A stretch of DNA of 64,000 nt from an uncultured Methanosarcinaceae archaeon (GCA_963733675.1 CAVTET010000005.1:32001-96000); one strand, 5' to 3'. Shown: positions 22,717 to 39,010, counted from the stretch's first letter. The notes: a model not told the origin generated them from the sequence alone. A program made the numbers and translations.

Positions 22717-23148
22717 ATGCTTATTTTTGGACATATTGGCGTCACATTGGGAATATTTTTTGGAGTTTTATTTCTCATACCACAATTACAGACTATTATA
22801 GATCCAACGTATCTGGTCATCGGATCGCTTCTGCCAGACTTAATAGACAAACCTCTAGGAATAATTATATATTCGTCTACCATTGCAAACGGACGGACGA
22901 TAGCTCATACATTGCTCTTTTCTGTTACCCTCTTTCTGACAGGTTTATACTTATGCGATAAAAGAGGAGATACCAAAATCCTTACCCTTGCATCATGTTC
23001 TATATTTCATCTTATGGAGGACCAGATGTGGGCATCGCCTAGAACTTTATTTTGGCCTTTTCTAGGATGGCGTTTCTGCAAAAATCCGCATCATACTGGA
23101 CTAAAATACTTATTAATGCTTTTTAAAAGATCTTTTAGAAATTTATAA
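22717..23148 (+). CDS. Membrane metal-dependent hydrolase (YdjM/DUF457-like), possibly 3'-truncated
   Basis: FGH, GSLLPDLIDK, GRTIAHTL, HLMED, LFWPF. Confidence 0.75.
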   Translation: MLIFGHIGVTLGIFFGVLFLIPQLQTIIDPTYLVIGSLLPDLIDKPLGIIIYSSTIANGRTIAHTLLFSVTLFLTGLYLCDKRGDTKILTLASCSIFHLMEDQMWASPRTLFWPFLGWRFCKNPHHTGLKYLLMLFKRSFRNL

Positions 23149-23371
23149 AAAGACTATACCTCTCGTTTGCCATCAGACAATATATTTGAAGTACATATTT
23201 GAATACTATATATAGCGATTTTATAACATAATTCTTAGATGTATGAAAAAAAATAACGCTATTTGACGTTTTGTACCTTAACCGCATCAGCAGTGCACCG
23301 AAAGTTCTGTAAATTCGGAATTACTTCGTATCCTTTTTTTCACCACAAAAAATAGCATTTATCTTTTTTAC

Positions 23372-23399
23372 TAATGTATATGTTTTGACAAATACATTA
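23372..23399. promoter_or_regulatory. 11-6-11 inverted repeat upstream of the integrase (candidate recombination core site or operator)
   Basis: TAATGTATATG-TTTTGA-CAAATACATTA, arms 10/11 complementary. Confidence 0.45.
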
Positions 23400-23437
23400 A
23401 ATTAGCTGCATAGGTATTTGTTCGGTTGCGATCTCAA

Positions 23438-24722
23438 ATGAAAGTTAATGAGTTAGAGAATGACAAAACAATTAAGGATTGGCTTTCCGGAATCAAGGCA
23501 GCTGATGAAACAAGAAAAGGGTATCTGCAATCAATGCAGCAATTTACTGAGTTCACCCATAAAACTCAATTGCAGCTTATAGAAGAAGCTGAAACAGAGA
23601 TGCAGGCTGGACTCCTGATGCGTGAGAGAAATATAACCAGTTATCTCCGAGAGTTTAGAGAACAATTAGAGAGAAAAGATATCGCTCCACTGACTATTAA
23701 AGGTAGAATGACAGGAGTATGCTCGTTTTATAGATTGTATAATATTCAGTTGCCAGTACTCCCAAAAGGCACAACAAATGCGAGACCAGAATTAAAAAGA
23801 AAGAAAATACCAACTAAAGATGATATAAGAAAAATTCTTAATGTTTGTGATCCCCTTGAGCGTGCTCTTGTGCTAGTGGGTGTTAGTAGTGGATTAAGTG
23901 CTGTGGACTCTCTAATCTGAGAGTCAGTGATTTCGTAGATGGTTATGATCCCCAAACAGGCATAACAACGCTACACCTAGTCAGGAAAAAGAAAAATTAT
24001 GAGTTCTACACATTTTTATCTCCCGAAGCTTCAAAAGCAATTCAGGATTATCTTAACTGGCGAAATAGGGAGCCTAATTATAAAAGCGTAGTAAGAGAGA
24101 AACAACTTGAAAAACAACATGTCACTACTAAAGAAGGATATCTGTTTGTCACCAGAACTGTGCCTTCTGAATATCTAACAGCTAAGAAAACAAAGGATAA
24201 AGAAGATCTAAGAAAGCTAAGTAAAGGAACGATAATATCTATTTATCAGAGACTGAATGAAGAAGCTCAGACAAATTCAGAGAGTGGTGAATACAATATA
24301 AACAGATCACATAATATGAGGAGATTCTTTAATACCACGTTACTCAATGAACGTGCCAGTATATCTTACTAGGACATCAATTGGACGCGACACATGAAGC
24401 ATATTATAGAGCGTCCCCTAAGAAGTTGAAAAAAGAGTATGCAAAATATATCTCATATCTAACTATTGAAAAGTCAATAGATCCTACTGAGCACCCCGCT
24501 TTCATTCAAATGAAGGACGATAAAGATGCATACAAGCGAATTACTGACATTATGACCCAGGAGAGAAGAGACGAAAGATCAGAACTGCAAGAACTCAGGG
24601 CAGAAATTGAAAGAATAAAAAAAATTAATGAAGACACAGCCGAGTTCCAACAGAGGATTCTCAACTTTAAAGATCCAATGGTATTGGAGCAATTAAGAAA
24701 ATTATTGAATGAAAATCAGTAG
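23438..24722 (+). pseudogene. Tyrosine recombinase/integrase, at least two frameshifts
   Basis: SSGLSAVD box, FYTFLSPEA, SHNMRRFF (HxxR), LLGHQLDATHEAYY (His/Tyr box), C-terminal coiled coil. Confidence 0.85.
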
Positions 24723-24849
24723 TTTATAAAATTTATAGTATTATTTTCTTTTGTATGCAGATCTAGCAATAGATTTTTCTTTTGTTCCCCTTTTGTTACC
24801 AAAGTTGTTTTGAAAAATGTTTGTTAAGACTCCTTCTTTTATTTTATTG

Positions 24850-24893
24850 TAGCTGAATTTTCAGTTATTAGTATAGCTGAATTTTTCAGCTTA
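24850..24893. promoter_or_regulatory. Tandem palindromic operator-like sites
   Basis: TAGCTGAATTTTCAGTTA and TAGCTGAATTTTTCAGCTTA directly upstream of the AGGAG RBS of ORF 24913. Confidence 0.5.
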
Positions 24894-24912
24894 AATTTAG
24901 GAGAAATTTTCA

Positions 24913-25215
24913 ATGTACAAAGATATAAGTTTTAAAATAAATTTCAATATAAGTGGAATAGCTGATGCTCTCAAAAGCTTGGTATCAGTCGGCGAACAGG
25001 TCATGAGGTCTATTAAAAATGGGTTCTTCAACGCAATGCACAAGCACGATTTTATAGAGATTCCTTATGCTAACAGGGTGGCAGTCAAGATTGAAGAAGG
25101 AGACGCCATTTTCTGGTGGATTTTGAGTCGCTATCGGGGTAAATATCGTAGGATCGACATAGTTAGGAATATTAGTCTCAATACTGCTCCATCTGCTTGC
25201 AGGAGCGTGGTTTGA
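24913..25215 (+). CDS. Hypothetical mobile-element protein
   Basis: RBS; stop overlaps the next start (TGATG). Confidence 0.6.
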   Translation: MYKDISFKINFNISGIADALKSLVSVGEQVMRSIKNGFFNAMHKHDFIEIPYANRVAVKIEEGDAIFWWILSRYRGKYRRIDIVRNISLNTAPSACRSVV

Positions 25216-25394
25216 TGCAGGCAAAAACTACTTTTAAACCTGAGACGGTTGCTGAAGTCAGCAAAATTTACAATGACTTCAAAGACAGCATCGAATTCAA
25301 AGCTCGTTTTGGGAATCAGGTTGAGCGAGCCTTTGTTCTCACGATTTTTGCAATCGCTGAGGTAAAGCTGGAAGGTGGAACCTATGAGATTTGA
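25215..25394 (+). CDS. Small hypothetical mobile-element protein
   Basis: Translationally coupled start MQAKTTFKPE; overlaps the next ORF. Confidence 0.55.
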   Translation: MQAKTTFKPETVAEVSKIYNDFKDSIEFKARFGNQVERAFVLTIFAIAEVKLEGGTYEI

Positions 25395-25963
25395 TGAGAC
25401 TAAGAGCTTTGACTTCAGATCCTTGTGCCAACCGACCACTTTTGAGCAAGATTCGGTCACAAAGAAATTAATCACGACTATTTTTCTCAAAAAACCGAGG
25501 TCTGGTCTTGATTTTATTAGGATAAGAGAGGAGCCAGATTGGACAGTTGTAATCTACCTTATGGACATGGGAAGAGAGGAGGAAAAAATATGCCGTCGCC
25601 CCAGACATCATACCTGAAGTCATGGATACTGGGAGACTGAAGCGGGTCAGACTTTATACCGGAATCACATTTAATGGCGACGATCTCTTTCTATCTGACA
25701 TTCCCTTCCCAGATTCCGATGGGAAAGAAAATGAATACAATAGAACCCGTGCCATAGCCTATGAAATGGCAAAGCACAAATGGGTTAAGCTTCAGGTCAA
25801 CAGGGCGCTTGAGGCGTACGAAATCGTTGAAACGAAGAGCAATCTCCCTGAGCCGATCTGGCCTGAGGAGCTATCAGATATCATAAAAGCCTTAGAGATC
25901 TGCTTTAAAGACAAACTGATAGACTCCGTTGACCATCCTGTGCTGAAGAAGGTTGAGGGGTGA
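25384..25963 (+). pseudogene. Unknown protein immediately upstream of PolA, frameshift in an A-run near 25585
   Basis: Joining frames gives ~190 aa: TTIFLKKP..DFIRIR...EEKYAVAPDII...LYTGI...FLSDIPFPDSDG..N...KWVKL..N..LEAYE...PEPIWPE...CFKDKLIDSVDHPVLKK. Confidence 0.7.
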
Positions 25964-25969
25964 AATTTG

Positions 25970-27695
25970 ATGTTGCCTCAGTTTAATCGAATTCACGTTA
26001 TTGACTTCGAGTTTGTGGCTGATCCAGGAGAAAAGCTTAAACCTGTGTGCCTCGTTGCACACGAATTTAAATCAGGAAAAACGTACAAAATATGGCTAGA
26101 AGGGCAAGCACCTTCTTTTAAACCTTTTTTTCCTTTTAGGGAGGAAGATCTTTTTGTGTCATACTATAGTTCTGCTGAATGGGGATGTTATCTAGCACTA
26201 AATTGGCTTTTACCTGTTAATGTGGTAGACTTATTCGCAGAATTCCGGGTTTTAACTAATGGCTTGCCAGGGATCTCCAATAGCCTACTTGGAGCTTGTC
26301 AGAGATTTGGTATCAATACTATTTCTGCATCTGAAAAGGAAAATGCGAGACTTCGGATCTTACAGGGTTCCCCATTTACCGAGGAAGAGAAAACGGAGAT
26401 TCTAGATTACTGCGAGAGTGATGTTCTAGAAACCGCAAAGCTGTTTCGTAGAATGCTTCCTTATATTGATATCCCGAGAGCTTTGATTCGAGGTAGATAT
26501 ATGGAGACCATAGCCACGATGGAACATATTGGAATCCCTATTGATGTAGAAATTTTAAAACTTCTAAAAGAAAACTGGGATCAAATCCAAGAGAGATTAA
26601 TCTCAGAAATCGATAAAGATTACGGAGTTTATGAAGGGACTTCATTTAAGGTTGCTAAATTTGAGGAATATCTTGTTAATAACAACATTGTTTGGCCTAG
26701 GACTGAGAGAGGAAATCTGGAACTTAAAGATGACACATTCAAAGAGATGTTGCATTAGGTACCCCAGGCTTCAGAGGCTACGAGATCTTAGGTACATTTT
26801 AGGGCAGCTCAGATTCTCGAATCTTCTAGTGGGAGCTGACAGTAGAAATAGGTGTCTACTTTCACCTTTTGGTTCTAAAACTGGTAGGAATCAACCGAGC
26901 ACAAGTAAATTCATATTTGGGCCTGCAGTCTGGCTTCGAAGTCTGATTAAACCAGAAAAAGGGAAGGTGTTAGCTTATATAGATTTTGAACAGCAAGAAT
27001 TTGCAATTGCTGCAGCACTCTCAAAGGATAAAGGGATGAAGGCTGCATATGCAACTGGTGATCCTTACTTAGCTTTTGGCAAGCAGGCAGGAGCAATTCC
27101 ACAGGACTCGATTAAAGAAACTCATAAGGCTGAGAGAGACTGTTTCAAACAATGCGTGCTGGGCGTGCAATATGGCATGGGTGCGGACAGCTTGGCTATG
27201 AGAATAGGGAAGTCAAGGCCGTATGCTGAAGAATTCCTTCATCATCACAAACGAGTTTACAGCAAATATTGGAGCTGGAGTGAACATGTGCTTAATACAA
27301 CTCTTTTCAATAGAAGAATCACGACTTGCTACGGCTGGCAATTGAACGTTATTGGATCTGAAAGGAAGGAAGCTAGGACAATCAAGAACTTCCCCTGCCA
27401 AGCTACAAGCGCAGAAATCCTACGAGTGGCTTGTATTCTTTTAGTGAAAAATGGGATAAAAATCATAGCTTCTGTGCACGATGCTATCCTAATCGAGTGT
27501 GAGGAAGAAGGTGCAGATGAAACTATTAAAAGAGCCCAAGAACTGATGACTCTAGCGTCTACTGAAGTATCGGGCCCTGATAATCCCATCCGAACAGAAG
27601 TGGAAATAATCCGATACCCCAATAGATACATGGACAAGAGAGGGTTAGAAACCTGGAACATTATAATGAATATTTTGAAAGAGTTGAAAGATTAA
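25970..27695 (+). pseudogene. Family A DNA polymerase (3'-5' exonuclease + polymerase, no 5' nuclease), single frameshift near 26750
   Basis: ExoI VIDFEF, ExoIII YCESDV; KTGRNQP; motif A YIDFEQQEF; motif B ERDCFKQCVLGVQYGMG; NFPCQ; motif C SVHDAILIE. Confidence 0.9.
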
Positions 27696-27726
27696 ACTAT
27701 GGGCATATTTGTCAAGTCTTGGTGCA

Positions 27727-27880
27727 AACAGTGGCAAATCTGGCACCTAACTGGTGACAAATTAGACACCTAACTGATGACAGATTTGCCACCACCTACG
27801 GAGTAGGCATTCTTGACATCAGTTTCAATGAAAAACGGGATCTACAGGCTTCTCATCCTAAAAAAACAAACTGGTGACAA
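27727..27880. repeat. Iteron-like cluster: three ~23-bp direct repeats with palindromic cores plus a partial fourth
   Basis: AACA-GTGGCAAATCTGGCACCT / AACTGGTGACAAATTAGACACCT / AACTGATGACAGATTTGCCACCA; AACTGGTGACAA at 27869. Confidence 0.7.
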
Positions 27881-27925
27881 GAAAGCCTACACCGTACAAT
27901 AGATTGTATTTATTGGAGTATACTT

Positions 27926-28261
27926 ATGTATGTATTAGAAAGCAAGGGTAAGAATAAGAGCAGGAATATACCTAAAGAAAAATTAGATAGTATATTTATC
28001 CCTCCTATGCCTTGGAGCTGGATACAGAAACTTCAGGCTCCTAAAGGGGGAGCCACTTTCAGGGTAGCCCATTATATTTGGTTCCAGAAAGGCGTGAAAG
28101 GGACCAAAGAAAGTCTTGTTATCTCAAGTAGTGGACTAAACAATTTTTACAAAATGGATAAGCGTACTTTCATTAGGGCTCTCCACGAATTAGAAAGCTT
28201 AGGGATGATTACTGTTGAAAGGCAGGCAGGGAAGAGCCCAAAAGTTACAATAAAAATTTAA
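27926..28261 (+). CDS. Winged-helix DNA-binding protein (replication-initiator-like)
   Basis: C-terminal wHTH pattern MDKRTFIRALHELESLGMITVERQAGKSPKVTI; follows the repeat cluster. Confidence 0.7.
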   Translation: MYVLESKGKNKSRNIPKEKLDSIFIPPMPWSWIQKLQAPKGGATFRVAHYIWFQKGVKGTKESLVISSSGLNNFYKMDKRTFIRALHELESLGMITVERQAGKSPKVTIKI

Positions 28262-28381
28262 AGGTCTTGCTTTTTATTAAGACCATCGAGTCCTTTTTAG
28301 TGTCTTTCCTTTCGATGTTTAGTAATGTTAAGTAAGAATAAAAAATGTGCGATGTATTATTAATTATTTTAATAAGAAAAT

Positions 28382-29069
28382 AAAATTGCTATTTAACACT
28401 TTCAAGAACTCACCTAGAGTTTACGAAAATGAATAGATTATGATAGATTCTCAGAAAATCTAGAACCCAAAAGCAATATCAATACAACCTTTTACTCGTA
28501 TATTGACACATAAAGATGTGATATGATTACTTATATTCTCAATTTCTAAATGAGATTTCATTTACTTTTTTATTACTTGAACTATCTTGCTAATCCTATT
28601 CTAGATTTTGTTTACAGAGTACCATAACCTGACTTATTCTCAGCCCCTTCATTGAGTTTTTGATATTAGGTATAAACTTATCTAATTCAAGAAAATGCCT
28701 AGAATAGCCCCACGTTCGTTCCTGTATAACAAGTCATAGGTGAAAGTTTTAAAAGCTATAAGCAGTCAATAGCTCAAAATACCCATTCCATTTGTGAGTT
28801 CATAACTCGGTTTCATAGATAAACAAACTAAAAAAAATATTAAGCATAACACTCAATTATATTTATTAAAAAAAGTAAAAACGAGATCAAAATGACAAGA
28901 TCTTCAAAATTGACTAAAGAGTTACAACAGCAAATCGGTGAGAATGTTGCATTGGGACTTACTTATGCTTTAGCAGCAGCATCCGCAGGAATAACGTATC
29001 AAACATTTAATGACTGGATGAATAAAGGAAAAAATTCAAAATCTGGGGAGTATTTTGAGTTCTATAAAC
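28382..29069 (+). repeat. 688-bp inverted repeat, left arm (partner 35487-36174)
   Basis: Reverse complement of 35487-36174; both arms 688 bp; no mismatch seen by eye. Confidence 0.92.
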
Positions 29070-29077
29070 TAACATAA
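28892..29077 (+). pseudogene. Truncated copy of the HTH/terminase-small-subunit-like gene
   Basis: First 59 aa identical to 35230-35664, then cut by the ~245-bp repeat. Confidence 0.8.
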
Positions 29078-29312
29078 TTATCTATATTGTTTACAACGTT
29101 TGTTTATTATTACTTGAAAATCAAATAATATTTATTTAGTAAAATATAATAGTTATATATTTATCTGTGACTTTGCAAGACAGCAAGTGGAATATACCCA
29201 TTCAATATATCTTTGAGTTGTGAATGTCTGCTTGACTGCATGATTGGTTGCGGTCTGGATGTATTCTGATAACAAATTCAAAGGATTGATTTCACTTTTG
29301 TCTCCACGTGAG
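29069..29312 (-). repeat. ~245-bp dispersed repeat (probable IS end), homologous to 7745-7991
   Basis: Colinear reverse-complement similarity to 7745-7991. Confidence 0.7.
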
Positions 29313-29560
29313 CTAACACTAAAATAAATCTTCGCTTTTTCCTAATATAAGCCATGCTTGATTAAAGTTTCACCATTCTTCAACTAGTCCATGCATTTGA
29401 AAGAGATTTATCTTGCTTCAAAAGGGCATAAACTTAGATTAGATTCTATCCGAGAAGTCATTTAATGGTGTGTTGTAAGTATCAGAGGAATAGAAATCTC
29501 TAGATAAATATATGAGCTCATTAGGAGCCCACAGTGGGATTTAAATCAAATCGTAATAGG

Positions 29561-29884
29561 TTAGATATAGTCTACTGCCAGTTTCTTACTGGCCACCAAA
29601 TCATCTAAACAAAATCCCAGTGAAGCAAAATTCTGGACCAATTCGTTATAGGTTTCTTCAAAAGCTATAAAGACGCCTGGCTCATCGTAGTTTTGGGCTC
29701 CATTGACCAGGAACTCCATGGCCATAAGTGTCTTTCCTGAACCTGCACTTCCGTATACAAGTGTAGTACGACCCTTTGGCAATCCACCATCAGTTAGTTC
29801 ATCAAGACCAGTTATGCCAATTGGAGATTTTTCAAGATGCGCTTCTGTTAAAGTTGGGCTCTCTTCTTCAATCATCAAATGCAC
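29561..29884 (-). pseudogene. kaiC: KaiC-family ATPase, N-terminal fragment
   Basis: LEKSPIGITGLDELTDGGLPKGRTTLVYGSAGSGKT...EPGVFIAFEET; ends after ~105 aa. Confidence 0.8.
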
Positions 29885-30133
29885 CTTTTAATATTAATTT
29901 TGAAATTATTATATTACCCTACTATTAAAAGTCAGACCTTCTTTATTATAAATTAGCCTATCAATTGAATTTATTTAGCCTGCATTTGATATTTTAAGTC
30001 TTTTATGACAATATATTCAAAAGTTTAGATATTCACTAATTTACAGAAGCATAGAGTATTTGGCAGTTTAGTAAATGCAAAAAATAGTAAGAAACAGATA
30101 AGCAAGATTTAATAAATCCTAATGTTATCGATT

Positions 30134-30589
30134 TTAAATTGAAGCAGTTGATGGCTCTTTTTGTTTACCAACCAGAGAAAACTTATCCATGATTTCTTTC
30201 CGTATTATATCGAAGTCCTTGACGATTATCTCAACCGTCTCATTCGTGTTCTCTGAAACTGTATTAATTTTTCTATAGACCCGCCGTCCAAACTCGTCAG
30301 GAAATCATCTTTCCAAAATCCACATGCAAACTTGACAGTTTCCAGCTTTTGCTGCTGCGTTTAAACTCTCAAGAAGTTTCTTAGCCCCTTCAGCATTGCA
30401 TTTTTGAATATATTGAGCAAACAAAAAATACTTCCCAGATTTCTCTGTCTGCCCCCTTTTCAGCCATGAGTTTAAACTTTGGTAGATTACACCCGCAGCT
30501 TCGGCAGCTAGAGCATAAGTCAACCCAAGAGATACACCACCACCGATTTCCTGTTGCATTTGAAGCGTGAGTTTCGAAGGACGTGGCAT
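30134..30589 (-). pseudogene. HTH/terminase-small-subunit-like gene, in-frame TGA at 30305-30307
   Basis: MPRPSKLT...LGLTYALAAEAAG...CQVCMWILER*FPDEFGRRVY...; paralog of 35230-35664. Confidence 0.75.
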
Positions 30590-31131
30590 GATAACACCGT
30601 TTTTTATTTTACATAATTGATATTAGTAAGTATTGTATTTAATGTTTTTTAGTTCCTTTATGCACTAAAGCGGGGTTTATACCGCCATATCAAAAATAAG
30701 CCATTATCAGCCGTTTTAAGACGTTTTTTAACTAAGGTAAGATATCTAGGACTCATTATAAAAGTCTCACTAGTAGTCCCAAATTAAGTCATTTTTTCAA
30801 CAAAATAAATTCCCCCTGATTTTACTGCCATAGCACGGTAAGTACCTTCGGGATATTTTTCATATAGTTTTATTATTTTAAAATAATATAAATTATGTTG
30901 CAATATTAGGTGCTTAGATTTTAAGATTGGATTTCACATAAATTTCATATTCTTTAGTTTAAGGTCGAAAAATAAGGACATTCTTTAAAAAAATTTAAGC
31001 TATTTACTTACCACATATTTATGAGAAGTATCTAACAAAAACTACCGATTGTGGGGCTATTTAAGGCATTTTTTTGAGTCGGATGGGGTTATAAAAATCA
31101 GTTAAAAAACTTAATATAAGGGTTGAGAGAA

Positions 31132-31191
31132 AGTCCAATTACTGGCAAGCTTTCTGATACTAGTCCAATTACTGGCGAGCTTTCTGATACT
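31132..31191. repeat. 2 x 30-bp tandem duplication
   Basis: AGTCCAATTACTGGC(A/G)AGCTTTCTGATACT twice. Confidence 0.85.
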
Positions 31192-31582
31192 TTCTGATAT
31201 TTAGACTGATATTATTCATTTTTATGTTCCGGTTGATCATGTCAATTAATCAGAATCTATAACATCTTTCGCCGTCCTTAGGCTCTGCGAAGAATACTAG
31301 ACAGATAATCCCTTACTCTTCTTTATCTTGAATTTGGTTTGTAGGCCTTATTATCCGGGGTAAGCCACGGACAAATAAACCTACGCATAACTGATAGATT
31401 TTGGCTTGCACATCGAGAATGCAGGATAGCCGACCTATCAGTCAGTGGATATTATTTTTCTCGAAGTTATACCACTCACTTTTGCGTTTGTTTTATACTT
31501 GGTCAGCCACCTTTCACAGACGGTAGTTGCATGATCTTTACATCCAGATATTCATTCAAAACCGTCATATGACATTTCAATC

Positions 31583-31965
31583 TCACTGTCGGGCCATGAC
31601 AATACGCATCTCAGTTTCCTTGTCTTCTATCAGCTGGCCGCTCACGTCCACTATCACGCTATGGATCTTGCCTGTGAACTCGGGGACGGTAGTCTGGTGT
31701 GACTGGTGATCTATGAGCTGAGCCACAGGTTACTCCACCAGTTAACCCTAACACAAGTGGAATAGTTACAGGTACATCAATTTGGCCGACTAACTTCCCA
31801 TCTATAAAGAGCTTAGCAATTCCAGGTGAACCCTTACCATTAGCAAAATCTGGCTTACCAGTCACCTCGAACTCGAACCCGAGTCGATGTCTCCCTTCGG
31901 GAACATTCTCATTGGACTCTACATGATACAAGGCTCTAGATACGTAATTGTGCACCCAGTGAAGT
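31583..31965 (-). pseudogene. Arylsulfatase C-terminal fragment
   Basis: HNYV...VPEGRHRLGFEFE.TG.PD...GKGSPG..KLFIDG...GLTGGVTCG...FTGKIHSV.VDVSG.LIED...MARQ. Confidence 0.65.
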
Positions 31966-32670
31966 TTCCCATTTTACCGAATTTTTCAGAAAGCACCTGA
32001 ACTTTGAAGTTAGCAAGTTCTTCTACCTTGCTTATTCCCATCTTTTTTAGTGCTTCAGTTGTTTTTTTACCAATGTAAGGTACTACAGATACCGGTAGTG
32101 GGAAAAGGAAGTTTCTGACATTTTCAGGTCTAACAACTGTTAACCCATCGGGTTTCTGAAACCCAGATGCTATTTTGGCTACCAATTTATTTGGACCAAT
32201 ACCAACTGAACATGTAATTTTTTCTTGCTGCTTAATTCCATCCTTAATCGTGCGTGCACAGAGAACAGCATCTTCAAAATTACTGATATTAAATGGTACA
32301 AGATAGGCTTCATCTATGCTAACTTACTCAAATTTTTCAGAAAATTCTCGCAGAATCGACATCACATTGAATGATGCTGTTTTATACAACTCCATATTCA
32401 CAGGCAAAAAAAGTGCAACCGGGACACAATTTATGGGCCCTACTTACCAGCATTGCGGAATGTACTACAGATTCCCTTGCTTCGTATGAACATGTGCTTA
32501 CAACGCCGCTCCTAAGTGTTGGATCAAATCCAATAACAGCACACAGAGCCTTCCCTCTTAAATTAGGGTGCTCTTTTACTTCCACTGATGCAAAAAAGCT
32601 ATCCATGTCAACATGCAAGACTATCCGCCTTTCATGGTTATCTGTTTCAGAATTTGAGGCAGCATCATTG
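31960..32670 (-). pseudogene. dinB: DNA polymerase IV (DinB) paralog, fragmented and 3'-truncated
   Basis: HVDMDSFFASVE, GVVSTCSYEAR, SIDEAY, TCSVGIGPNKLVAKIAS, KPDGLTVV; stops and frameshifts. Confidence 0.85.
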
Positions 32671-32917
32671 TAAGATGGTTCAAATAACTGATAAAATGTT
32701 GCGAAAAATCTAGTGACCTTATATATAAGATTGTAGGAGAGCTAGTTGAAATACAGAACTTTGTTAGGCTTAAATTAGCTTTTTCGACTACATTAGAAGC
32801 TCACTATATTAAGGACCAAAGGAAAATGATGTTTATTATGAGTATAATTTGACTCTAAAGATGAGGCTATAAAAAGGCGTTATTTCATAACCCACCATCA
32901 TTTTTCTTAATATGTAC

Positions 32918-34030
32918 TTAAATAAAATCAGTAATCAGAGTTTGTCTTTCGTCTCTTTCTCTGAGATTCGAAACTCCTACTCCTATAAGCCTGAGCTTTT
33001 GCCTTCCAATAAACTCTGAAAGTAGCTGCATAACTATCCGTTTAATAACAAAAATATCAGAAGTCCAGACTGAGGTAGTCTTTGAGCGTGTATATGTGGA
33101 AAAATCCTCGAAGCGCACTTTAAGAGTTACTGTTTTGAAAAGGAAGCTATGTCTGAGGAGAGCCCTATGAACGCTCTCTGCAAGCATGTCCAGAGAGCCT
33201 GCAATTTTTACAGGGTCATTTGTATCCTCTTCAAATGTTCCGCTCCTGCTCATTGACTTTACAGCTTCCTCCCATCCCTTTACTTCACTGAAATCTAGAC
33301 CATAAGCCACCTGCTTCATCCAGAGACCCATTTTCCCGAACTTTTCAGAGAGTATCTGTACATCGCAGTTTGCTAGATCCTCCACTTTTGTAATCTCCAT
33401 CAATTTAAGGATCTTGGTTGTTTTTTCACCTATACCAGGTATTTTTGAGACGTCTAGCGGGTAAAGGAACTCTTGAACATCTTCTGGCCTGACAACCGTA
33501 AGGCCATTAGGTTTATTAAACTTTGAAGCGACCTTTGCAATAAGTTTGTTTGGTCCAACCCCTACCGAACATGTGATTCTTTCTTGTCTCTTGATCTCGT
33601 CCTTTAATCTAAGTGCAATTATGGCAGCCTCTTCAAAGTTTCTTATTTCGGGTCCAGGCACTAGAAAAGCTTCGTCTACGCTATACTGCTGGAACTTCTC
33701 GGCAAAACCCTTCATTATCTCCATTACGTTTGCAGAAACCTGGGCATACAGCTTCATATTTACAGGTACAAAGGCAGCATCTGGACAGAGCTTATAAGCC
33801 TGTGAAATTGGCATCGCCGAATGTATACCATATTTTCTTGCCTCATATGAGCACGTGCTCACGACCCCTCTCCCTTCACCTCCCTTTGGATCTGAACCAA
33901 CGACAACGGGTAGACCTTTAAGTTCCGGCTTTTCTCTGGTCTCCACAGATGCAAAAAACGAATCCATGTCTACGTGGAGAACAATCCGCTTTTCGGTGCA
34001 GTTTGTATGATGATTGAGCGACAACATCAA
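32918..34030 (-). CDS. dinB: DNA polymerase IV (Y family)
   Basis: LHVDMDSFFASVE, STCSYEARKYGI, SVDEAF, KLIAKVAS, little-finger KVRFEDF...LRLIGVGVSNL; intact. Confidence 0.93.
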   Translation of the reverse strand: MMLSLNHHTNCTEKRIVLHVDMDSFFASVETREKPELKGLPVVVGSDPKGGEGRGVVSTCSYEARKYGIHSAMPISQAYKLCPDAAFVPVNMKLYAQVSANVMEIMKGFAEKFQQYSVDEAFLVPGPEIRNFEEAAIIALRLKDEIKRQERITCSVGVGPNKLIAKVASKFNKPNGLTVVRPEDVQEFLYPLDVSKIPGIGEKTTKILKLMEITKVEDLANCDVQILSEKFGKMGLWMKQVAYGLDFSEVKGWEEAVKSMSRSGTFEEDTNDPVKIAGSLDMLAESVHRALLRHSFLFKTVTLKVRFEDFSTYTRSKTTSVWTSDIFVIKRIVMQLLSEFIGRQKLRLIGVGVSNLRERDERQTLITDFI

Positions 34031-34199
34031 TGCGATATTAGACTAAAAATATAATAGGCATAAGTAAGCTGGGTGAAAGTATTAAATTTATAGACTTATT
34101 ATTCTACAAAAAGACTTGATTAAAATTATGCTTTATAAGTTTGACCAAATATTATATAAACACTATATATTAGTTATTACATAAAAGGAGATAAATGTC

Positions 34200-34905
34200 G
34201 TGTGTTGAGCGTATGGATTTTCAGTAATGAACGTGAATGACATATATGATAGGTTTGGTATTGAAAATGCTTTGGAGAATTTCAAACCGAGATGGAACAT
34301 CAGACCGGGACAATTAAATCCTGTTATCGTCAATCTTGAAAAAAAGAAAATTGAATTTATGCTTTGGGGACTACTCCCCCACTTTGCCAAAAATGAGCAT
34401 TATAAATACAAAACGATTAACGCTAAAGCTGAAACAGTAGATAAATTGCCTACATTCAGCAGGTCGTTTCTTCATAAACGTTGCTTAATCCCAGCTACAG
34501 GATTTTACGAACCCGATAAGATTCATTTTTCAAAATCACCTTTCTCATGGCATTACTTCCAAATGAAAGACCATTCGATTTTTGCTTTTGCTGGCCTATA
34601 TGACGTTTGGAAAGACGAAAATAACTGGGAAAATCCATAGCTATACAATCATTACCCCAGTCCCAAATGCAATTGTTGGGAAATATCATAACAGGATGCC
34701 TGTTATTTTAGAAAAAGAGGATGAAAAGGTATGGTTGAATCCTGATATTATTGAAGCGGCTCAGCTTCGTCCCTTTTTGAAGCCTTTCCCTGGTAACAAA
34801 CTGGAAGAATGGGAAGTTGGAGCTAAAGCGAGAAATTCGAAAAACGATTCTCCAGAAGTTATTGAGGCGCTTAAAATCAAAAGACAACGAAACTTATTTG
34901 ATTAA
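34200..34905 (+). pseudogene. SRAP (HMCES/YedK) abasic-site-processing protein
   Basis: GTG-TGT-TGA start (Cys2 then stop), PRWNIRPGQ, WGLLP, INAKAET, RCLIPATGFYE, FAGL, HNRMPVIL; frameshift near 34620. Confidence 0.88.
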
Positions 34906-35229
34906 CTTTTTGATAATGTAATGTCTAAGAGAAAGAATATTTTCCAGTGAGTGTAGAGCCTATAAATTTTCAATTTCTGAATTTTGACTTTTATTCTTCA
35001 GTCGTATGTTGACCGGCTGATTCTGAAATTTTTGTAACGGAACAGATGCAGCCACTTATCAATCAAAAAGCAATTGCAGTCCAAGGAGCAAAAAAGCCAT
35101 GATTGAAATTTTGGTAACCCTAGGCACAATTATGTCAGCAAATTAAATGAGTAAGTGAATATGTTTTATTAAAGAATAGTTTGCTTCAGACTGGAGTATC
35201 TGATTATTTGATGACGTTTCATTATCTTA

Positions 35230-35664
35230 TTAATTAGGATTTATATAATTATTAAACTTTGCTATAATTTGTTTTCTAATTATATCTGCATCGTTGACTA
35301 TTATCTCAACATTTTCGTTTTTATTCTCGGAAATTGCATTAATTATCCTATATTCACGCCTTCCAAAATCGTTAGGGAACCATCTCTCAAAAATCCACAT
35401 GCAAACTTGGCAATTTCCCAAATCAGCAGCATCATTAAGGCTCTGTAGACATTTCAGGGCCCCGTCAGCATTGCATTTTATGATGTGTTTATAGAACTCA
35501 AAATACTCCCCAGATTTTGAATTTTTTCCTTTATTCATCCAGTCATTAAATGTTTGATACGTTATTCCTGCGGATGCTGCTGCTAAAGCATAAGTAAGTC
35601 CCAATGCAACATTCTCACCGATTTGCTGTTGTAACTCTTTAGTCAATTTTGAAGATCTTGTCAT
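35230..35664 (-). CDS. HTH protein resembling phage terminase small subunit
   Basis: SKLT...I...V.LG.TY..AA..AGITYQTF..W..KG...G.Y.EF...A...W.FER.FP..FGR pattern recalled from TerS-like proteins. Confidence 0.6.
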   Translation of the reverse strand: MTRSSKLTKELQQQIGENVALGLTYALAAASAGITYQTFNDWMNKGKNSKSGEYFEFYKHIIKCNADGALKCLQSLNDAADLGNCQVCMWIFERWFPNDFGRREYRIINAISENKNENVEIIVNDADIIRKQIIAKFNNYINPN

Positions 35665-36174
35665 TTTGATCTCGTTTTTACTTTTTTTAATAAATATAAT
35701 TGAGTGTTATGCTTAATATTTTTTTTAGTTTGTTTATCTATGAAACCGAGTTATGAACTCACAAATGGAATGGGTATTTTGAGCTATTGACTGCTTATAG
35801 CTTTTAAAACTTTCACCTATGACTTGTTATACAGGAACGAACGTGGGGCTATTCTAGGCATTTTCTTGAATTAGATAAGTTTATACCTAATATCAAAAAC
35901 TCAATGAAGGGGCTGAGAATAAGTCAGGTTATGGTACTCTGTAAACAAAATCTAGAATAGGATTAGCAAGATAGTTCAAGTAATAAAAAAGTAAATGAAA
36001 TCTCATTTAGAAATTGAGAATATAAGTAATCATATCACATCTTTATGTGTCAATATACGAGTAAAAGGTTGTATTGATATTGCTTTTGGGTTCTAGATTT
36101 TCTGAGAATCTATCATAATCTATTCATTTTCGTAAACTCTAGGTGAGTTCTTGAAAGTGTTAAATAGCAATTTT
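35487..36174 (-). repeat. 688-bp inverted repeat, right arm
   Basis: Reverse complement of 28382-29069. Confidence 0.92.
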
Positions 36175-37189
36175 TATTAATATGATTAATATTGTGTACT
36201 TTTAGTCTTTTATTTTATAACGGTCATGTTATTACCTATTGACAACTTCTACAATCCCCTAGAGCGATTACACTGGCAATATTATTTTTATACATCCAGA
36301 AAATTATGAATATAACAATGATAACGTTCACAATGTCGGTTATAAAGACTACAGCGGTACTATAGCACATTTATTTAATACTATTTGGCAGTGAACCCTA
36401 TGGATATAGCGGTGTACCTTTTGGATATAACTATGTATGGGATAGTGGACCTTCTAGCATAGCAGAAATACCAAATTCAGATTATCATTGTTCCACTGCA
36501 AAGGTTTCTTCGCCTGGGGGTTCCAAGGCCAGATTGAGTAGTCCCAAATCTAAGGATTCTATAAGGTAGAAGAAACATAAAAAATATTCCAAACATCAAA
36601 AGGCGAGAAAAAAATTGCCAAGTGTAGAGTAAAAAATGCCTTGATTTTTCAGTTCCATTAATTGGAAGCAGCACCCAAAAAAAGTTGTATCATTGCTGCA
36701 AGTTTTATGGATAATAAGCTCTAATAACAAAAATAAAATGAGTAGAAGGATCTACGGTCCATATTTGCTTAATCCTGCAATAATATTTCTCAATTGAATG
36801 CTCATAATATATATATATTTTTAAATTAGGAAATAAAAGAGTTAAATTTCTAAAAGTTAATACCTATTCAGATATCTATAAGTACTGACAAAAACCTGTG
36901 CATCAATGAAACAATAAATATAGACACATTATCAGCATGATCATGGACTTAGAATCCTTTTTTTATAGCGAAAGAAAAAAGATATAGAGTCAATCAGATA
37001 TTACAGAACTTTCGGACACTCCATGCAATCAATCAAAAACCAGAAAGTAAAAAAAGTCTCATATCTAGAGAAAACTGTATTATAGTCAATCGGGCAATTT
37101 TATTCAGGAAAAACCTGAAAGCATTCAGTGATCAATTATCAAAATATTTATCTGTAGTCAAATGTAGCTGAGTTTTTAATCGTGAGGAA

Positions 37190-37738
37190 ATGAGCTTGGA
37201 CTGGAATGAAGTATATAATGGAACACCACCATGGAATATAGGTCACCCACAACCAGTTTTCGAAGCCCTTATAAAGGAAGGAGAAATTGAGCCTAGAAGG
37301 GCGCTGGATATTGGATGCGGCCGGGGTGATAATGCAATAATGTTAGCTATGAATGGGTGTGACGTCACAGGTATAGACCTTTTTGAAGATGCCATCTCTG
37401 ACGCAAAGGCAAAGGTAATAGAGCGCCATGTTAAGGTAAATTTCGTCGTCGGGAATGTATTAAGCATGGATCAGCTTTTCATGGAGGCTGAATTTGACAT
37501 CGTTATAGATTCGGTTTTGTTTCATGCGGTGACGGATGAGGATAGGCCAGTTTTTGCACGGCAGATACATAGAGTTCTAAAACCAGGCGGCAAATATTTC
37601 ATGCTGAGTTTCTCTGATAAAGAGCCCGAAGGCTATGGGCCCAGAAGGATTTCAAAAGCTGAAATAAAGCGTACTTCCACGCCATTTTTTAATATTATAT
37701 ATAAAAGATTCGGCTTTCTATTCGAAAGCAGAGCCTAA
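37190..37738 (+). CDS. Class I SAM-dependent methyltransferase (TPMT/TehB-like), possible 3' frameshift
   Basis: PPWNIG.PQP, ALDIGCGRG, VTGID, FDIVIDS.LFH, LKPGG. Confidence 0.8.
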   Translation: MSLDWNEVYNGTPPWNIGHPQPVFEALIKEGEIEPRRALDIGCGRGDNAIMLAMNGCDVTGIDLFEDAISDAKAKVIERHVKVNFVVGNVLSMDQLFMEAEFDIVIDSVLFHAVTDEDRPVFARQIHRVLKPGGKYFMLSFSDKEPEGYGPRRISKAEIKRTSTPFFNIIYKRFGFLFESRA

Positions 37739-38150: not shown

Positions 38151-38233
38151 GCCGAGGTAGTCTAGTGGTAGGGCGCAAGCCTGGAAAGCTTGTGGGGCTT
38201 AGCCCCTCGGGAGTTCGAATCTCCCTCTCGGCG
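38151..38233 (+). tRNA. tRNA-Ser(GGA)
   Basis: GCCGAGG acceptor, CAAGC-CT-GGA-AA-GCTTG anticodon arm, long variable arm, GTTCGAATC. Confidence 0.96.
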
Positions 38234-38988: not shown

Positions 38989-39010
38989 TTTTCCGATGAG
39001 GTGGTTCTAG

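What the first reader, a model, noticed from the sequence alone, without database searches (positions are those of the whole stretch)
23291..37021. Candidate PolA-driven, PICI-like virus satellite / self-replicating integrative element in a methanogen
Seen: one ~13.7-kb block ordered as tyrosine recombinase, operator palindromes, a coupled operon (two small ORFs, an unknown protein, a family-A DNA polymerase), iterons, a wHTH protein, terminase-small-subunit-like genes and DinB/SRAP/KaiC cargo. No capsid, portal, large terminase, primase, helicase or Cas1 is visible. Established: bacterial PICIs are 10-15 kb with integrase, a replication module with ori, terS and cargo; casposons and pipolins use family-B polymerases. 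Inference: this is an integrase-mobilised element that replicates with its own PolA and borrows a helper virus for packaging. I do not recognise this architecture as described in archaea. This copy is decaying.
Basis: partly seen in the sequence, partly recalled or inferred. Interest (0 to 1): 0.85.

Follow-up and report, generated by a model that had tools for sequence, protein, structure and literature searches.

The report
Archaeal integrative element with terminase gene
A decayed, composite copy of a small mobile DNA element in a methane-producing archaeon that carries its own DNA polymerase and a virus DNA-packaging gene but no capsid genes, so it may hitch rides in the particles of other viruses.

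Summary
The block is real. A close relative (G045) has an empty site that defines it as a 13.5-kb insertion (window 23393-36892) with a 7-bp core, TGACAAA, at both junctions.

It is a composite, not one element. The rest holds repeat insertions, a second TerS remnant, KaiC, sulfatase and DinB pseudogenes, one intact DinB, a broken SRAP gene and a full TerS gene. A perfect 688-nt inverted repeat links the two TerS copies.

The synteny recurs in this genome and in relatives, including one intact copy (G063:C73). F2-PolA-wHTH is a conserved trio, found in 76-77 of the 80 loci examined (10 archaeal, 70 bacterial). No family library or paper search named it.

The TerS call holds: relatives sit directly before TerL in archaeal viruses. 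This genome has 34 TerS loci behind at least three kinds of replication module, and no TerL, portal or capsid gene.

Best reading: a virus-derived integrative element, plausibly a satellite of tailed Methanosarcina viruses. Packaging is untested.

The parts
23290..23390 (+). Copy of a dispersed host repeat (core CCGAAAGTTCTGTAA). It is host flank, not part of the element.
   Evidence: 97 matches with up to 2 mismatches in the genome. It is present in the empty site of G045. blastn finds at least 8 other loci.
23386..23392 (+). attL core TGACAAA (left junction of the insertion)
   Evidence: The G045:C53 flank identity ends at 23395. Other copies of the element start at 23385-23398.
23438..24722 (+). 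Tyrosine integrase pseudogene in three frames, broken near 23893-23908 and 24363-24375
   Evidence: Alignment to the intact 432-aa integrase of G063:C73, 89-95% identity in three frames. Pfam and PHROG hits.
24913..25394 (+). Two small ORFs (100 aa and 65 aa) of unknown function, conserved only in elements of the window's type
   Evidence: 50-87% identity in L105, L106 and L107. No family match.
25366..25963 (+). F2, a conserved ~190-aa protein of unknown fold. Its stop lies 3 nt before the PolA start.
   Evidence: Family present in 76 of 80 PolA loci. 190-aa intact form in L107. Contigs of 4 runs lack one A at 25583, which opens a 198-codon frame. No Pfam, NCBIfam, PHROG or PDB-sequence match.
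25967..27695 (+). Family-A DNA polymerase (3'-5' exonuclease plus polymerase), with one frameshift at about 26724-26767
   Evidence: Pfam DNA_pol_A 2.7e-27 and phrog_17 1.7e-38. Aligns in two frames to the 574-aa intact PolA of L107. The frameshift is not corrected in X1 and X2 contigs.
27731..27880 (.). Iteron-like repeats (AACTGRTGACA: 3-4 direct copies and 1 inverted) in the PolA-wHTH spacer. Candidate origin or operator.
   Evidence: The spacer is 87% conserved in G059:C14 and G063:C73. The C4 copy has a 26-nt repeat pair in the same spacer.
27926..28261 (+). wHTH protein (111 aa), third member of the conserved trio. Candidate origin-binding initiator.
   Evidence: Family present in 77 of 80 PolA loci. 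Weak PHROG hits to DnaD-like loader and replication initiator families, 9.4e-5 to 3e-3. No Pfam or NCBIfam match.
28382..29069 (+). Arm 1 of a perfect 688-nt inverted repeat: the TerS leader plus the first 59 codons of TerS (ORF 28892-29077, truncated)
   Evidence: In run X1 it is a separate 688-nt contig at depth 19.2, against 10.9-12.5 for the neighbouring contigs.
29045..29547 (.). Dispersed repeat(s) that cut off the TerS copy of arm 1
   Evidence: blastn finds about 20 other loci at 74-85% identity.
29561..29884 (-). KaiC/RecA-type ATPase fragment (107 aa), a pseudogene
   Evidence: Pfam KaiC 1.1e-29, covering profile positions 2-85 of 231 only.
30173..30965 (-). Second TerS gene (one in-frame TGA; ORF 30305-30589) with its conserved leader. 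Remnant of another element.
   Evidence: phrog_4102 6.2e-14. Profile match with one TGA inside. DNA similarity to about 30 TerS loci that runs into the leader.
31659..31955 (-). Fragment of a sulfatase-like gene (my reading of the 813-aa family member; no family scan run). Fragments of this family lie near other TerS loci.
   Evidence: family of 5 loci.
31919..32618 (-). DinB (Y-family polymerase) pseudogene
   Evidence: Pfam IMS and IMS_HHH on fragments. 88% DNA identity to C4:154474-155383.
32918..34030 (-). Intact DinB (370 aa). Possible cargo, or part of another insertion.
   Evidence: Pfam IMS 1.2e-49 and IMS_C 8.5e-24. It lies inside the insertion relative to G045.
34227..34905 (+). SRAP (SOS-response associated peptidase) gene with one frameshift
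   Evidence: Pfam SRAP 8.7e-35 and 6.3e-14 on two overlapping ORFs. It is the only copy in the genome.
35230..35664 (-). Full-length TerS-like gene (144 aa)
   Evidence: phrog_4102 1.5e-18. 38% identity over 132 aa to the TerS that precedes TerL on G047:C342. AF2 model: HTH plus a long helix. The top 5 Foldseek PDB hits are phage Sf6 TerS.
35487..36174 (-). Arm 2 of the 688-nt inverted repeat
36798..36892 (+). Conserved right end of the insertion, with attR core TGACAAA at 36886-36892
   Evidence: The right-flank matches of G046:C58 and G063:C52, which hold other insertions at this site, begin at 36798 and 36841, inside the block's right end. The G045 flank starts at 36877.
36951..37022 (-). 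Second, inward-facing copy of the dispersed host repeat (host flank)

Best explanation
SHOWN. Window 23393-36892 is a 13.5-kb insertion at a recombination hotspot, with a 7-bp core (TGACAAA) repeated at both junctions. It is a decayed composite. The left 5.7 kb is one copy of a family of small integrative elements. These are built from a tyrosine integrase, a conserved three-gene module (F2, a distinct clade of family-A DNA polymerase, and a wHTH protein with iteron-like repeats in front of it) and, in this Methanosarcina-like lineage, a terminase small subunit (TerS) gene as the last gene. The remaining 7.8 kb holds repeat insertions, a second TerS-element remnant, pseudogenes, one intact DinB gene and a duplicated TerS region.

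INFERRED. The integrase inserts and excises the element at the TGACAAA core. The excised circle replicates with its own polymerase. The wHTH protein marks the origin at the iterons. F2, whose gene stop abuts the PolA start, is an accessory of the polymerase. Priming and unwinding are left to the host, because no primase or helicase is encoded. TerS then binds the element's DNA and recruits the large terminase and capsids of a co-infecting tailed virus that has a related TerS. The 6-7 kb element would be packaged, probably as concatemers. That makes it a virus-derived satellite. This particular copy can no longer do any of this, because its integrase and polymerase are broken.
For: Insertion and att:
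- G045:C53 joins window 20908-23395 directly to 36877-41040 at 95-96% identity.
- Three other genomes hold different insertions at the same left junction, 23321-23394.
- Other copies of the element begin at 23385-23398.

Recurrence:
- PolA gives 21 matches in about 10 places in this genome.
- The full synteny is found at C4:167.5-174.8k, C4:43.8-55.6k and C1:1066-1073k.
- The C4 copy is 7.3 kb, and nifH starts 1.1 kb after TerS. Two other MAG loci (L117, L118) show the same order, TerS followed by nifH.
- An intact copy of the window's type lies in G063:C73: integrase 432 aa, F2 190, PolA 574, wHTH, TerS 151.

Conserved trio:
- F2 is in 76, PolA in 79 and wHTH in 77 of the 80 best loci, out of 479 confirmed in species-representative genomes.
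- A tyrosine integrase lies directly downstream in 34 of the 70 bacterial loci.
- The 7 archaeal PolA rows form one clade, SH-like support 99.
- The alignment keeps invariant Asp/Glu in DYSQQEF and His-Asp in VHDA, which I read from memory as motifs A and C.

TerS:
- phrog_4102 at 1.5e-18.
- A homologue lies directly before TerL and portal in Methanobacterium virus PhiF3.
- TerL follows the TerS relative in 11 of the 43 IMG/VR loci that I examined, of 78 fetched. It also follows in L017 and L018, at 42% identity.
- A contig of the same genus, G047:C342, carries primase, TerS (38% identical) and TerL.
- The top 5 Foldseek PDB hits are Sf6 TerS.

Modularity:
- This genome has 34 TerS loci, 14 of them with an ORF of at least 130 aa.
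- They follow at least three kinds of replication module: the F2-PolA-wHTH trio, Toprim plus a canonical PolA, and a UvrD helicase plus a 440-aa protein.
- In G048 the order is integrase, regulator-like gene, DUF927 protein, TerS.

No structural genes:
- Terminase_6N, TerL_ATPase, GpA_ATPase, Phage_portal and Phage_capsid each gave 0 matches in the genome, which is 92% complete.
- 13 TerL and 2 portal queries, then 3 GpA and 2 capsid queries, gave 0 hits in 26 archaeal loci (442 kb). Positive controls matched.
Against: - No evidence of excision, circles or packaging. Contigs of four metagenome runs show neither an empty-site joint nor a circle joint. All listed runs are DNA contigs, and none is a virome.
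- No helper provirus in this genome. Only 3-5 TerL-like fragments of about 55 aa were found.
- Only 8 of the 34 TerS loci lie within 12 kb of a tyrosine recombinase gene, and 9 of 34 lie behind a PolA. Most TerS genes therefore stand in wreckage or alone, and could serve another role.
- In bacterial relatives the slot after wHTH often holds a small excisionase-like HTH gene and the integrase. TerS could therefore be a recombination or regulatory factor.
- The structural match to TerS is weak: E 0.14-0.65, TM 0.37-0.45, model pLDDT 67.9.
- No att repeat could be found for the other copies.
- The TerS-TerL binding test and the F2 fold could not be run.
- The orientation of 29070-35486 is not settled by short-read contigs.
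Confidence: 0.5

Rival explanations
1. Integrative plasmid-like element with no virus involvement. It integrates, excises and replicates by itself. The TerS-like protein has been taken over as an oligomeric wHTH recombination directionality factor or transcription regulator.
For: - In the circular form, TerS sits next to att and the integrase.
- Bacterial relatives have small HTH genes that look excisionase-like by sequence (my reading; no family scan was run) between wHTH and the integrase. Four small families cover 6, 4, 3 and 3 of the 80 loci.
- Oligomeric wHTH directionality factors exist (abstract of PMC11963761, seen in the listing).
- No helper and no structural genes are in the genome.
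Against: - Similarity to viral TerS runs over nearly the full length, residues 3-134 of 144, beyond the HTH.
- The same gene ends at least four unrelated replication modules. That pattern fits a packaging function shared across elements.
- 14 of the 34 copies keep full-length ORFs, although only 8 of 34 lie near an integrase.
Confidence: 0.27
2. Eroded provirus. The element is what remains of a small tailed virus whose replication module was F2-PolA-wHTH followed by TerS, TerL, portal and capsid.
For: - In 6 of the 16 IMG/VR contigs with this PolA clade that I examined, a GpA-type large terminase follows the trio. Three were checked in Pfam (GpA_ATPase 2.4e-80, 9e-60 and 2.4e-90).
- Two of those contigs also carry capsid genes: Phage_capsid_4 3.6e-50 and Phage_capsid 4.8e-15.
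- This genome holds short TerL-like fragments.
Against: - No TerL, portal or capsid hit in 26 archaeal loci (442 kb) or in the 80 genome loci with 10-kb flanks.
- The compact C4 copy has nifH starting 1.1 kb after TerS, and two other MAG loci show the same TerS-then-nifH order.
- TerS is the last gene behind several different replication modules.
- The archaeal TerS (phrog_4102 type) is not of the Nu1-like type seen with the bacterial GpA terminases.
Confidence: 0.08
3. Domesticated TerS genes. The many solo TerS copies are kept by the host, or by the elements, as decoys that disturb the genome packaging of incoming tailed viruses. The polymerase element is only their vehicle.
For: - There are 34 TerS loci in this genome. 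At least 19 were scored by the profile search, against 0-1 in each of the other 26 genomes of the genus sampled.
- About half stand without recognisable replication or integrase genes.
- A leader of about 300 nt is conserved upstream of the genes.
- Satellites that interfere with helper packaging are known in bacteria (abstracts seen in the listings).
Against: - 20 of the 34 copies are truncated or broken, so most are not maintained.
- No test of selection or expression was done. No RNA run was listed.
Confidence: 0.1
4. Assembly artefact. The block, or its inverted duplication, is a chimera produced by assembling repeats.
For: - The perfect 688-nt inverted repeat and many dispersed repeats.
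- At least one single-base indel in an A-run differs from short-read contigs.
Against: - Contigs from four runs of two studies cover the block piecewise at 99-100% identity and bridge both edges of arm 1: X2 28382-29965, X4 28326-29087, X5 28084-28963.
- The arm has about twice the depth of its neighbours.
- Relatives carry the same parts.
- Only the orientation of the segment between the arms stays open.
Confidence: 0.03

Closest known systems
Phage-inducible chromosomal islands (PICIs) and PICI-like elements such as the PICI-like tycheposons of Prochlorococcus
   Same: Site-specific integrase, own replication module with repeats next to it, and a terminase small subunit as the only packaging gene in many members. 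No capsid or tail genes. Modular exchange of replication genes. Specific att site. (PICI features from the abstract of PMC6092414. Tycheposon passages of 10.1101/2020.12.28.424599.)
   Different: The host is an archaeon. Replication uses a family-A polymerase trio instead of primase/helicase Pri-Rep. No homologues of PICI regulators were seen. Compact copies are about 7 kb. Induction, interference and packaging are untested. No helper has been identified experimentally.
Known or proposed archaeal virus satellites: pSSVx/pSSVi, haloarchaeal and nanohaloarchaeal SRCEs, Asgard NMV2S
   Same: Small archaeal elements thought to borrow the virions of a helper virus (passages of 10.1101/2025.02.15.638363, and 10.64898/2026.08.12.739948).
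   Different: pSSVx/pSSVi and the SRCEs are plasmid-derived, and their helpers are spindle-shaped viruses. SRCEs carry Rep plus a capsid protein and/or an AAA+ ATPase. [quoted passage not shown] In the passages I read, none has TerS, a family-A polymerase or the integrase architecture seen here.
Self-synthesising integrative elements with their own DNA polymerase (casposons, pipolins)
   Same: A chromosomally integrated mobile element that encodes its own DNA polymerase. Methanosarcina is a known casposon host (listing and abstract of PMC10359463).
   Different: Those use family-B polymerases, with Cas1 (casposons) or tyrosine recombinases with primer-independent PolB (pipolins; this point is recalled). 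Here the polymerase is family A with a 3'-5' exonuclease. There is no Cas1, and a TerS gene is present.
Small bacterial virus-like contigs with the same F2-PolA-wHTH trio (IMG/VR L222, L223, L225, L227, L234, L236)
   Same: The same three-gene replication module in the same order, often with an integrase.
   Different: They go on into a packaging and capsid module: weak Nu1-like TerS, GpA terminase, and a capsid or protease-capsid fusion. The archaeal elements stop after an unrelated TerS of the phrog_4102 type.
Tailed archaeal viruses with a phrog_4102-type TerS (Methanobacterium virus PhiF3; the G047:C342 contig; IMG/VR L017 and L018)
   Same: Homologous TerS, 31-42% identity.
   Different: In the viruses TerS is followed at once by TerL. 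PhiF3 goes on with a portal and a capsid-related protein. The G047 and L017 contigs carry a primase or primase-helicase upstream. The element has none of these.

Membership tests
Family-A DNA polymerase | Match to the DNA_pol_A profile above the curated cut-off | tested here: met
   PF00476 at 96.2 bits (cut-off 34.3) on the window's C-terminal ORF. 95.5 bits on the intact relative L114.
Family-A DNA polymerase | Conserved catalytic carboxylates of motifs A and C, and the exonuclease DxE motif (motif names recalled from memory) | tested here: met
   In alignment A2 of 14 sequences: invariant D446/E451 (DYSQQEF), H611/D612 (VHDA), R497/K501, and nearly invariant D108/E110. The window copy itself is frameshifted.
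Terminase small subunit (TerS) | Sequence-profile membership in a TerS family | tested here: met
   phrog_4102 at 1.5e-18 over residues 2-111. There is no Pfam or NCBIfam model for it.
Terminase small subunit (TerS) | Gene lies directly upstream of the large terminase gene in viruses | tested here: met
   Met for relatives: PhiF3 ORF8-ORF9, 11 of 43 IMG/VR loci examined, L017/L018 and G047:C342. Not met for the element copies, which have no TerL.
Terminase small subunit (TerS) | N-terminal HTH followed by a helical oligomerisation core; fold similar to solved TerS structures | tested here: inconclusive
   The AF2 model has an HTH (residues 9-47) and helices 53-81 and 85-95, with pLDDT 67.9. 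The top 5 Foldseek hits are Sf6 TerS, but at E 0.14-0.65 and TM 0.37-0.45.
Tyrosine recombinase (integrase) | Phage_integrase catalytic domain | tested here: met
   Intact relatives score PF00589 at 4.3e-11 (L114) and 2.1e-21 (L116). The window copy is broken into three frames and was not picked up by the genome-wide PF00589 search.
PICI | Unique and specific attachment site | tested here: met
   Empty site with a 7-bp core, and the same junction used by different insertions in 4 genomes. Other copies sit at other sites and their att could not be defined.
PICI | Exclusive PICI genes (regulators, Pri-Rep) | tested here: not met
   No primase/helicase Pri-Rep in the PolA elements. The replication genes are F2-PolA-wHTH, with no family match. 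One related Methanosarcina element has a DUF927 protein.
PICI | Conserved replication-origin organisation (iterons next to the replication genes) | tested here: inconclusive
   4-5 copies of AACTGRTGACA between PolA and wHTH, conserved in 3 copies. Origin function not shown.
PICI | Phage-dependent induction, interference, and specific packaging into phage-like particles | not testable with these tools
   Needs cultures or viromes. The listed runs are DNA metagenome contigs only.
Provirus of a tailed virus (Caudoviricetes) | Large terminase, portal and HK97-type capsid genes | tested here: not met
   0 matches for five Pfam hallmark families in the genome. 0 hits in 26 archaeal loci.
Casposon / pipolin | Family-B polymerase, with Cas1 in casposons | tested here: not met
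   The polymerase is family A. No ORF of the block that I scanned matched Cas1 or PolB.

The most novel reading that the evidence does not exclude
Methanosarcina-like archaea carry a superfamily of small integrative elements. They combine an integrase, interchangeable replication modules and a stand-alone terminase small subunit gene, and they are satellites of tailed archaeal viruses. That would be the first PICI-like system in Archaea. One of the replication modules (F2, a distinct family-A polymerase, and wHTH) defines an unnamed, polymerase-A-driven lineage of self-replicating integrative and virus-like elements shared by Bacteria and Archaea.
Probability: 0.4. Interest if true: 0.85.

Novelty: new variant of a known kind. 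Interest (0 to 1): 0.7.

Why it matters
No satellite of a tailed archaeal virus that relies on a TerS gene is described in the papers my eight searches returned. Archaea have no cellular family-A polymerase (recalled), so an element that brings its own poses a clear question about how it is primed and unwound.

If the reading holds, it gives:
- a testable helper-satellite system in methanogens, with candidate helper-type TerS-TerL contigs already in hand;
- an explanation for dozens of orphan TerS genes in one lineage;
- a conserved three-gene replication module, two of whose proteins match no family library, present in hundreds of bacterial and archaeal genomes and in small capsid-encoding contigs.

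The window copy is a wreck. It matters as a pointer to intact copies such as G063:C73.

Tried and rejected
- **tRNA target:** none at the junctions. The nearest tRNAs are at 19770-19847 and 38150-38235. No tRNA was found in six other element loci.
- **Terminal inverted repeats as element ends:** rejected. They are copies of a 97-match dispersed repeat that is also present in the empty site. Pairs of that repeat elsewhere enclose ordinary small genes and no transposase.
- **att repeats for other copies:** none convincing.
- **Empty site for the C4 copy by DNA search in relatives:** not resolved, because of nif paralogues.
- **Rfam on 19000-39000:** only the two tRNAs and a chance miRNA hit.
- **Single-sequence TerS scan of IMG/VR:** found nothing. 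The alignment-based scan worked.
- **PolA clade in the phage and plasmid collections:** no close relative. The best phage hit was 31.6% over 58% of the query, and the best plasmid hit was 28.3%.
- **F2:** no match in Pfam, NCBIfam, PHROGs or PDB sequences.
- **Read laying:** no empty-site or circle joint in contigs of 4 runs. One joint between the two TerS paralogues (30411 to 35581), seen in a single contig with 19 foreign letters between the sides, is not counted. No RNA holder was listed.
- **Literature:** eight searches, plus passages of PMC8651126, PMC4158269, PMC9796341, PMC4889955, 10.1101/2025.02.15.638363, 10.64898/2026.08.12.739948 and 10.1101/2020.12.28.424599, and the abstract of PMC6092414. 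None gave a description of a PolA-plus-TerS element. A 2023 compendium of methanogen viruses that I recall was not seen here. Supplements are closed, so lists of integrated elements there may bear on novelty.

Full report
**1. What is in the window.**

- A tyrosine integrase in three fragments (23426-24722).
- Small ORFs (24913-25617) and a 113-aa ORF (25622-25963).
- A family-A polymerase split into two overlapping ORFs (25967-26758 and 26631-27695; Pfam DNA_pol_A 2.7e-27, phrog_17 1.7e-38).
- A wHTH ORF (27926-28261).
- Three TerS-like ORFs (28892-29077, 30305-30589, 35230-35664; phrog_4102 1.5e-18 and 6.2e-14; no Pfam match).
- A KaiC fragment, a DinB pseudogene and an intact DinB gene.
- A frameshifted SRAP gene.

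None of the ORFs I scanned in the block matched a capsid, portal, large terminase, primase, helicase or Cas1 family.

**2. Boundaries.**

A DNA search of 59 genomes of the genus, followed by alignment of fetched loci, found an empty site.
- On contig G045:C53, window 20908-23395 is joined directly to 36877-41040 at 95-96% identity, with a 19-nt overlap.
- Comparing the empty site with the two junctions leaves a 7-bp core, TGACAAA, at 23386-23392 and 36886-36892. The insertion is therefore 13,500 bp (23393-36892).
- Three other genomes carry different insertions at the same site: G046 9.2 kb, G063 1.95 kb and G059 4.9 kb. Their left-flank matches end at 23321-23394.
- Copies of the window-type element at other loci begin at 23385-23398.
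They are present in the empty site, so they are host flank.

**3. The block is a composite.**

- A perfect 688-nt inverted repeat (28382-29069 and 35487-36174) duplicates the TerS leader and the first 59 codons of TerS.
- The arm-1 copy is cut off at 29067-29069, where another dispersed repeat family begins.
- A second TerS gene with an in-frame TGA and its own conserved leader lies at 30173-30965.
- Then follow a fragment I read as sulfatase-like, the DinB pseudogene, DinB, SRAP and the full-length TerS gene.

I laid contigs of four public metagenome runs from two studies on the block.
- They cover it piecewise at 99-100% identity.
- They bridge both edges of arm 1.
- In X1 the arm is a separate 688-nt contig at about twice the depth of its neighbours.

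The duplication is therefore real. Short reads cannot fix the orientation of 29070-35486. If that segment is flipped, wHTH is followed by the full-length TerS gene in the same direction, as in other copies.

The contigs also lack one A at 25583. Removing that base opens a 198-codon frame, so the split of F2 is a homopolymer error or a polymorphism. The PolA frameshift (about 26724-26767) and at least one integrase frameshift are not corrected by the contigs.

**4. The element recurs.**

- The polymerase has 21 matches in about 10 places of the 3.92-Mb genome.
- The order integrase, F2, PolA, wHTH, TerS is found at C4:167.5-174.8k, C4:43.8-55.6k and C1:1066-1073k.
- The C4 copy spans 7.3 kb, and nifH starts 1.1 kb after TerS. 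Two other MAG loci (L117, L118) show the same order, TerS followed by nifH.
- These in-genome copies are 82-87% identical to each other in DNA, but their PolA is only about 50% identical in protein to the window's. At least two sublineages coexist.
- Copies of the window's type lie in G063:C49, G063:C73, G059:C14 and G062:C5 (integrase only) at 87-93% DNA identity.
- G063:C73 is intact: integrase 432 aa, 168-aa and 65-aa ORFs, F2 190 aa, PolA 574 aa, wHTH, a TerS fragment and a 151-aa TerS.
- Integrase types and PolA types are shuffled between copies. G062:C5 has the window-type integrase with the C4-type PolA, and G059:C14 has the reverse.
- DinB genes lie next to TerS in G059:C14 as well but are missing from the compact copies, so their status as cargo is open.

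**5. The replication module.**

- An alignment-based scan of one genome per species confirmed 479 loci.
- Among the best 80 (10 archaeal, 70 bacterial), F2 is present in 76, PolA in 79 and wHTH in 77, always in that order and on one strand.
- A tyrosine integrase follows directly in 34 bacterial loci. A serine recombinase family is present in 13 loci. TerS is present only in 5 archaeal loci.
- F2 and wHTH match nothing in Pfam, NCBIfam or PHROGs, and an F2 profile matches no PDB sequence.
- The PolA alignment keeps the residues I read as catalytic.
- A FastTree of 74 rows puts the 7 archaeal rows in one clade (SH-like support 99). The bacterial rows do not follow taxonomy. The outgroup branch is long, so the root is not safe.
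- The clade is missing from the phage and plasmid collections.
- IMG/VR has 92 relatives. Of the 16 clade members I examined, 6 carry a large ORF downstream of the trio. In the three scanned, this is a GpA-type terminase, and two of those contigs also have capsid genes.
- None of the 80 genome loci, the 26 archaeal loci or this genome has those genes.

The module therefore serves both capsid-encoding virus-like elements and minimal integrative elements.

**6. The TerS gene.**

- Beyond the PHROG match, tblastn finds homologues in Methanobacterium virus PhiF3 (31%, directly before the putative TerL and portal) and in haloarchaeal virus HJTV-4 (25%, upstream of its terminase gene).
- 78 IMG/VR loci encode relatives. 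In 11 of the 43 I examined, a PhiF3-like TerL follows.
- In the closest two (42% identity), an overlapping 466-aa ORF follows. It is related to Terminase_6N-type TerL proteins of the genus.
- Terminase_6N occurs in 9 of 59 genomes of the genus and not in this one.
- One such contig, G047:C342, carries a primase, a TerS 38% identical to the window's over 132 residues, and TerL.
- The AF2 model (pLDDT 67.9) shows an HTH and a long helix. Its five best PDB matches are Sf6 TerS, at weak scores.

**7. TerS is shared by different elements.**

- The genome has 34 TerS loci. 14 have an ORF of at least 130 aa, 9 lie behind a family-A polymerase, 4 lie behind a 440-aa protein with a UvrD helicase, 11 have a convergent RHH-like gene, and 8 lie within 12 kb of a tyrosine recombinase gene.
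- One polymerase type is the trio. A second is a canonical DNA_pol_A with a Toprim protein.
- In G048 the order is integrase, a regulator-like gene on the other strand, a DUF927 protein and TerS.
- The profile finds TerS in 18 of 201 genomes of the class. It scores at least 19 copies in this genome, but 0-1 in each of the other 26 genus genomes sampled.

**8. No helper in this genome.**

- Five hallmark Pfam families gave no match. The genome is 92% complete.
- Only 3-5 fragments of about 55 aa resemble the G047 TerL.

**9. Mechanism and rivals.**

- Shown: site-specific insertion, recurrence, modularity, TerS homology, and absence of structural genes.
- Inferred: replication of the excised circle by its own polymerase from the iteron region, with host priming and unwinding, and TerS-directed packaging by a helper tailed virus.
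- I put this reading at about 0.5.
- Main rival (0.27): a plasmid-like integrative element whose TerS-like protein acts in recombination or regulation.
- An eroded provirus is unlikely for the archaeal copies (0.08). The bacterial capsid-encoding relatives make a viral origin of the module likely.
- Solo TerS genes kept as packaging decoys (0.10) is speculative.
- An assembly artefact is largely excluded (0.03).

**10. Comparison and novelty.**

- The architecture works like PICIs and PICI-like tycheposons.
- It fails PICI membership on the replication genes, and it could not be tested on induction, interference or packaging.
- Archaeal satellites in the papers I saw are of other kinds.
- I found no description of this trio, or of TerS-only archaeal elements, in eight searches. 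Supplements were closed, and one recalled compendium was not seen.

I rate it a new variant of a known kind. The window copy is a decayed pointer to intact relatives.

Noticed in passing
window 23290-23390 and 36951-37022; genome-wide: A dispersed repeat of about 60-100 nt (core CCGAAAGTTCTGTAA, consensus near GGCAGTGTACCGAAAGTTCTGTAAAAT...) has 97 matches with up to 2 mismatches in the 3.9-Mb genome. It is often found in inverted pairs around small ordinary genes, and no transposase lies between them. The integration hotspot lies between two inward-facing copies.
   Followed up: partly
window 28382-29069 and 35487-36174: A perfect 688-nt inverted repeat. Short-read contigs cannot fix the orientation of the 6.4 kb between the arms. 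In G059:C14 the TerS gene is inverted relative to wHTH, so this region may flip by recombination.
   Followed up: partly
window 29045-29547: A second dispersed repeat family, with about 20 other loci at 74-85% identity. It truncates a TerS gene. It looks like a MITE or an IS remnant.
   Followed up: no
window 37024-37804: A SAM-methyltransferase-like gene (182 aa; my reading of the sequence, no family scan run) directly outside the insertion has 4-5 paralogues at 72-82% DNA identity elsewhere in the genome. This stretch is missing between the flanks in G062:C5.
   Followed up: no
upstream of TerS genes, e.g. window 30590-30965 and 35665-35755: About 300 nt of non-coding leader upstream of TerS is conserved across 24 aligned loci, with promoter-like AT-rich boxes and GGTG before the ATG. 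It could hold the promoter, a regulatory site or a packaging site.
   Followed up: partly
window 27749-27880 versus 23386-23393 and 36886-36893: The iteron motif (AACTGGTGACAAAT) and the att core (TGACAAA, followed by T at attL) share the string TGACAAAT. This may be chance.
   Followed up: no
G000 C1:1159892, C3:665683, C4:1540, C8:668: Four near-identical 380-aa tyrosine recombinase genes, three of them within ~3 kb of a contig end. A homologue of a 221-aa protein of the G047 virus-like contig lies next to at least three of them. This is another multi-copy element that breaks the assembly.
   Followed up: no
G000 C1:722961-723134, C4:295997-296149, C1:241033-241194, C1:348514-348807: Short fragments of about 55 aa, 43-49% identical to the nuclease part of the G047:C342 large terminase. 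They are probably fossils of tailed proviruses. One lies 3 kb from a PolA-wHTH remnant.
   Followed up: partly
L018:4352-6820 (IMG/VR contig with the closest viral TerS): Its 822-aa protein shares repeat domains (45-57% identity) with many proteins of this genome that I take to be surface proteins. That fits a Methanosarcina-like host for this virus.
   Followed up: no
IMG/VR L222, L223, L225, L227, L234, L236: Bacterial-type contigs of 5-18 kb combine integrase, F2-PolA-wHTH, a GpA terminase and a capsid or protease-capsid fusion. They are small capsid-encoding elements that may be small phages or capsid-forming satellites.
   Followed up: partly
window 31132-31191: Two tandem 30-nt copies (97% identical) in the non-coding stretch upstream of the second TerS leader.
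   Followed up: no
G000 C1:606001-618000 and C1:1018001-1030000 (L215, L216): A second kind of TerS-linked element carries a Toprim protein and a canonical family-A polymerase with the DNA_pol_A_exo1 domain. Two unrelated PolA lineages therefore ride on TerS-bearing elements in one archaeal genome.
   Followed up: partly
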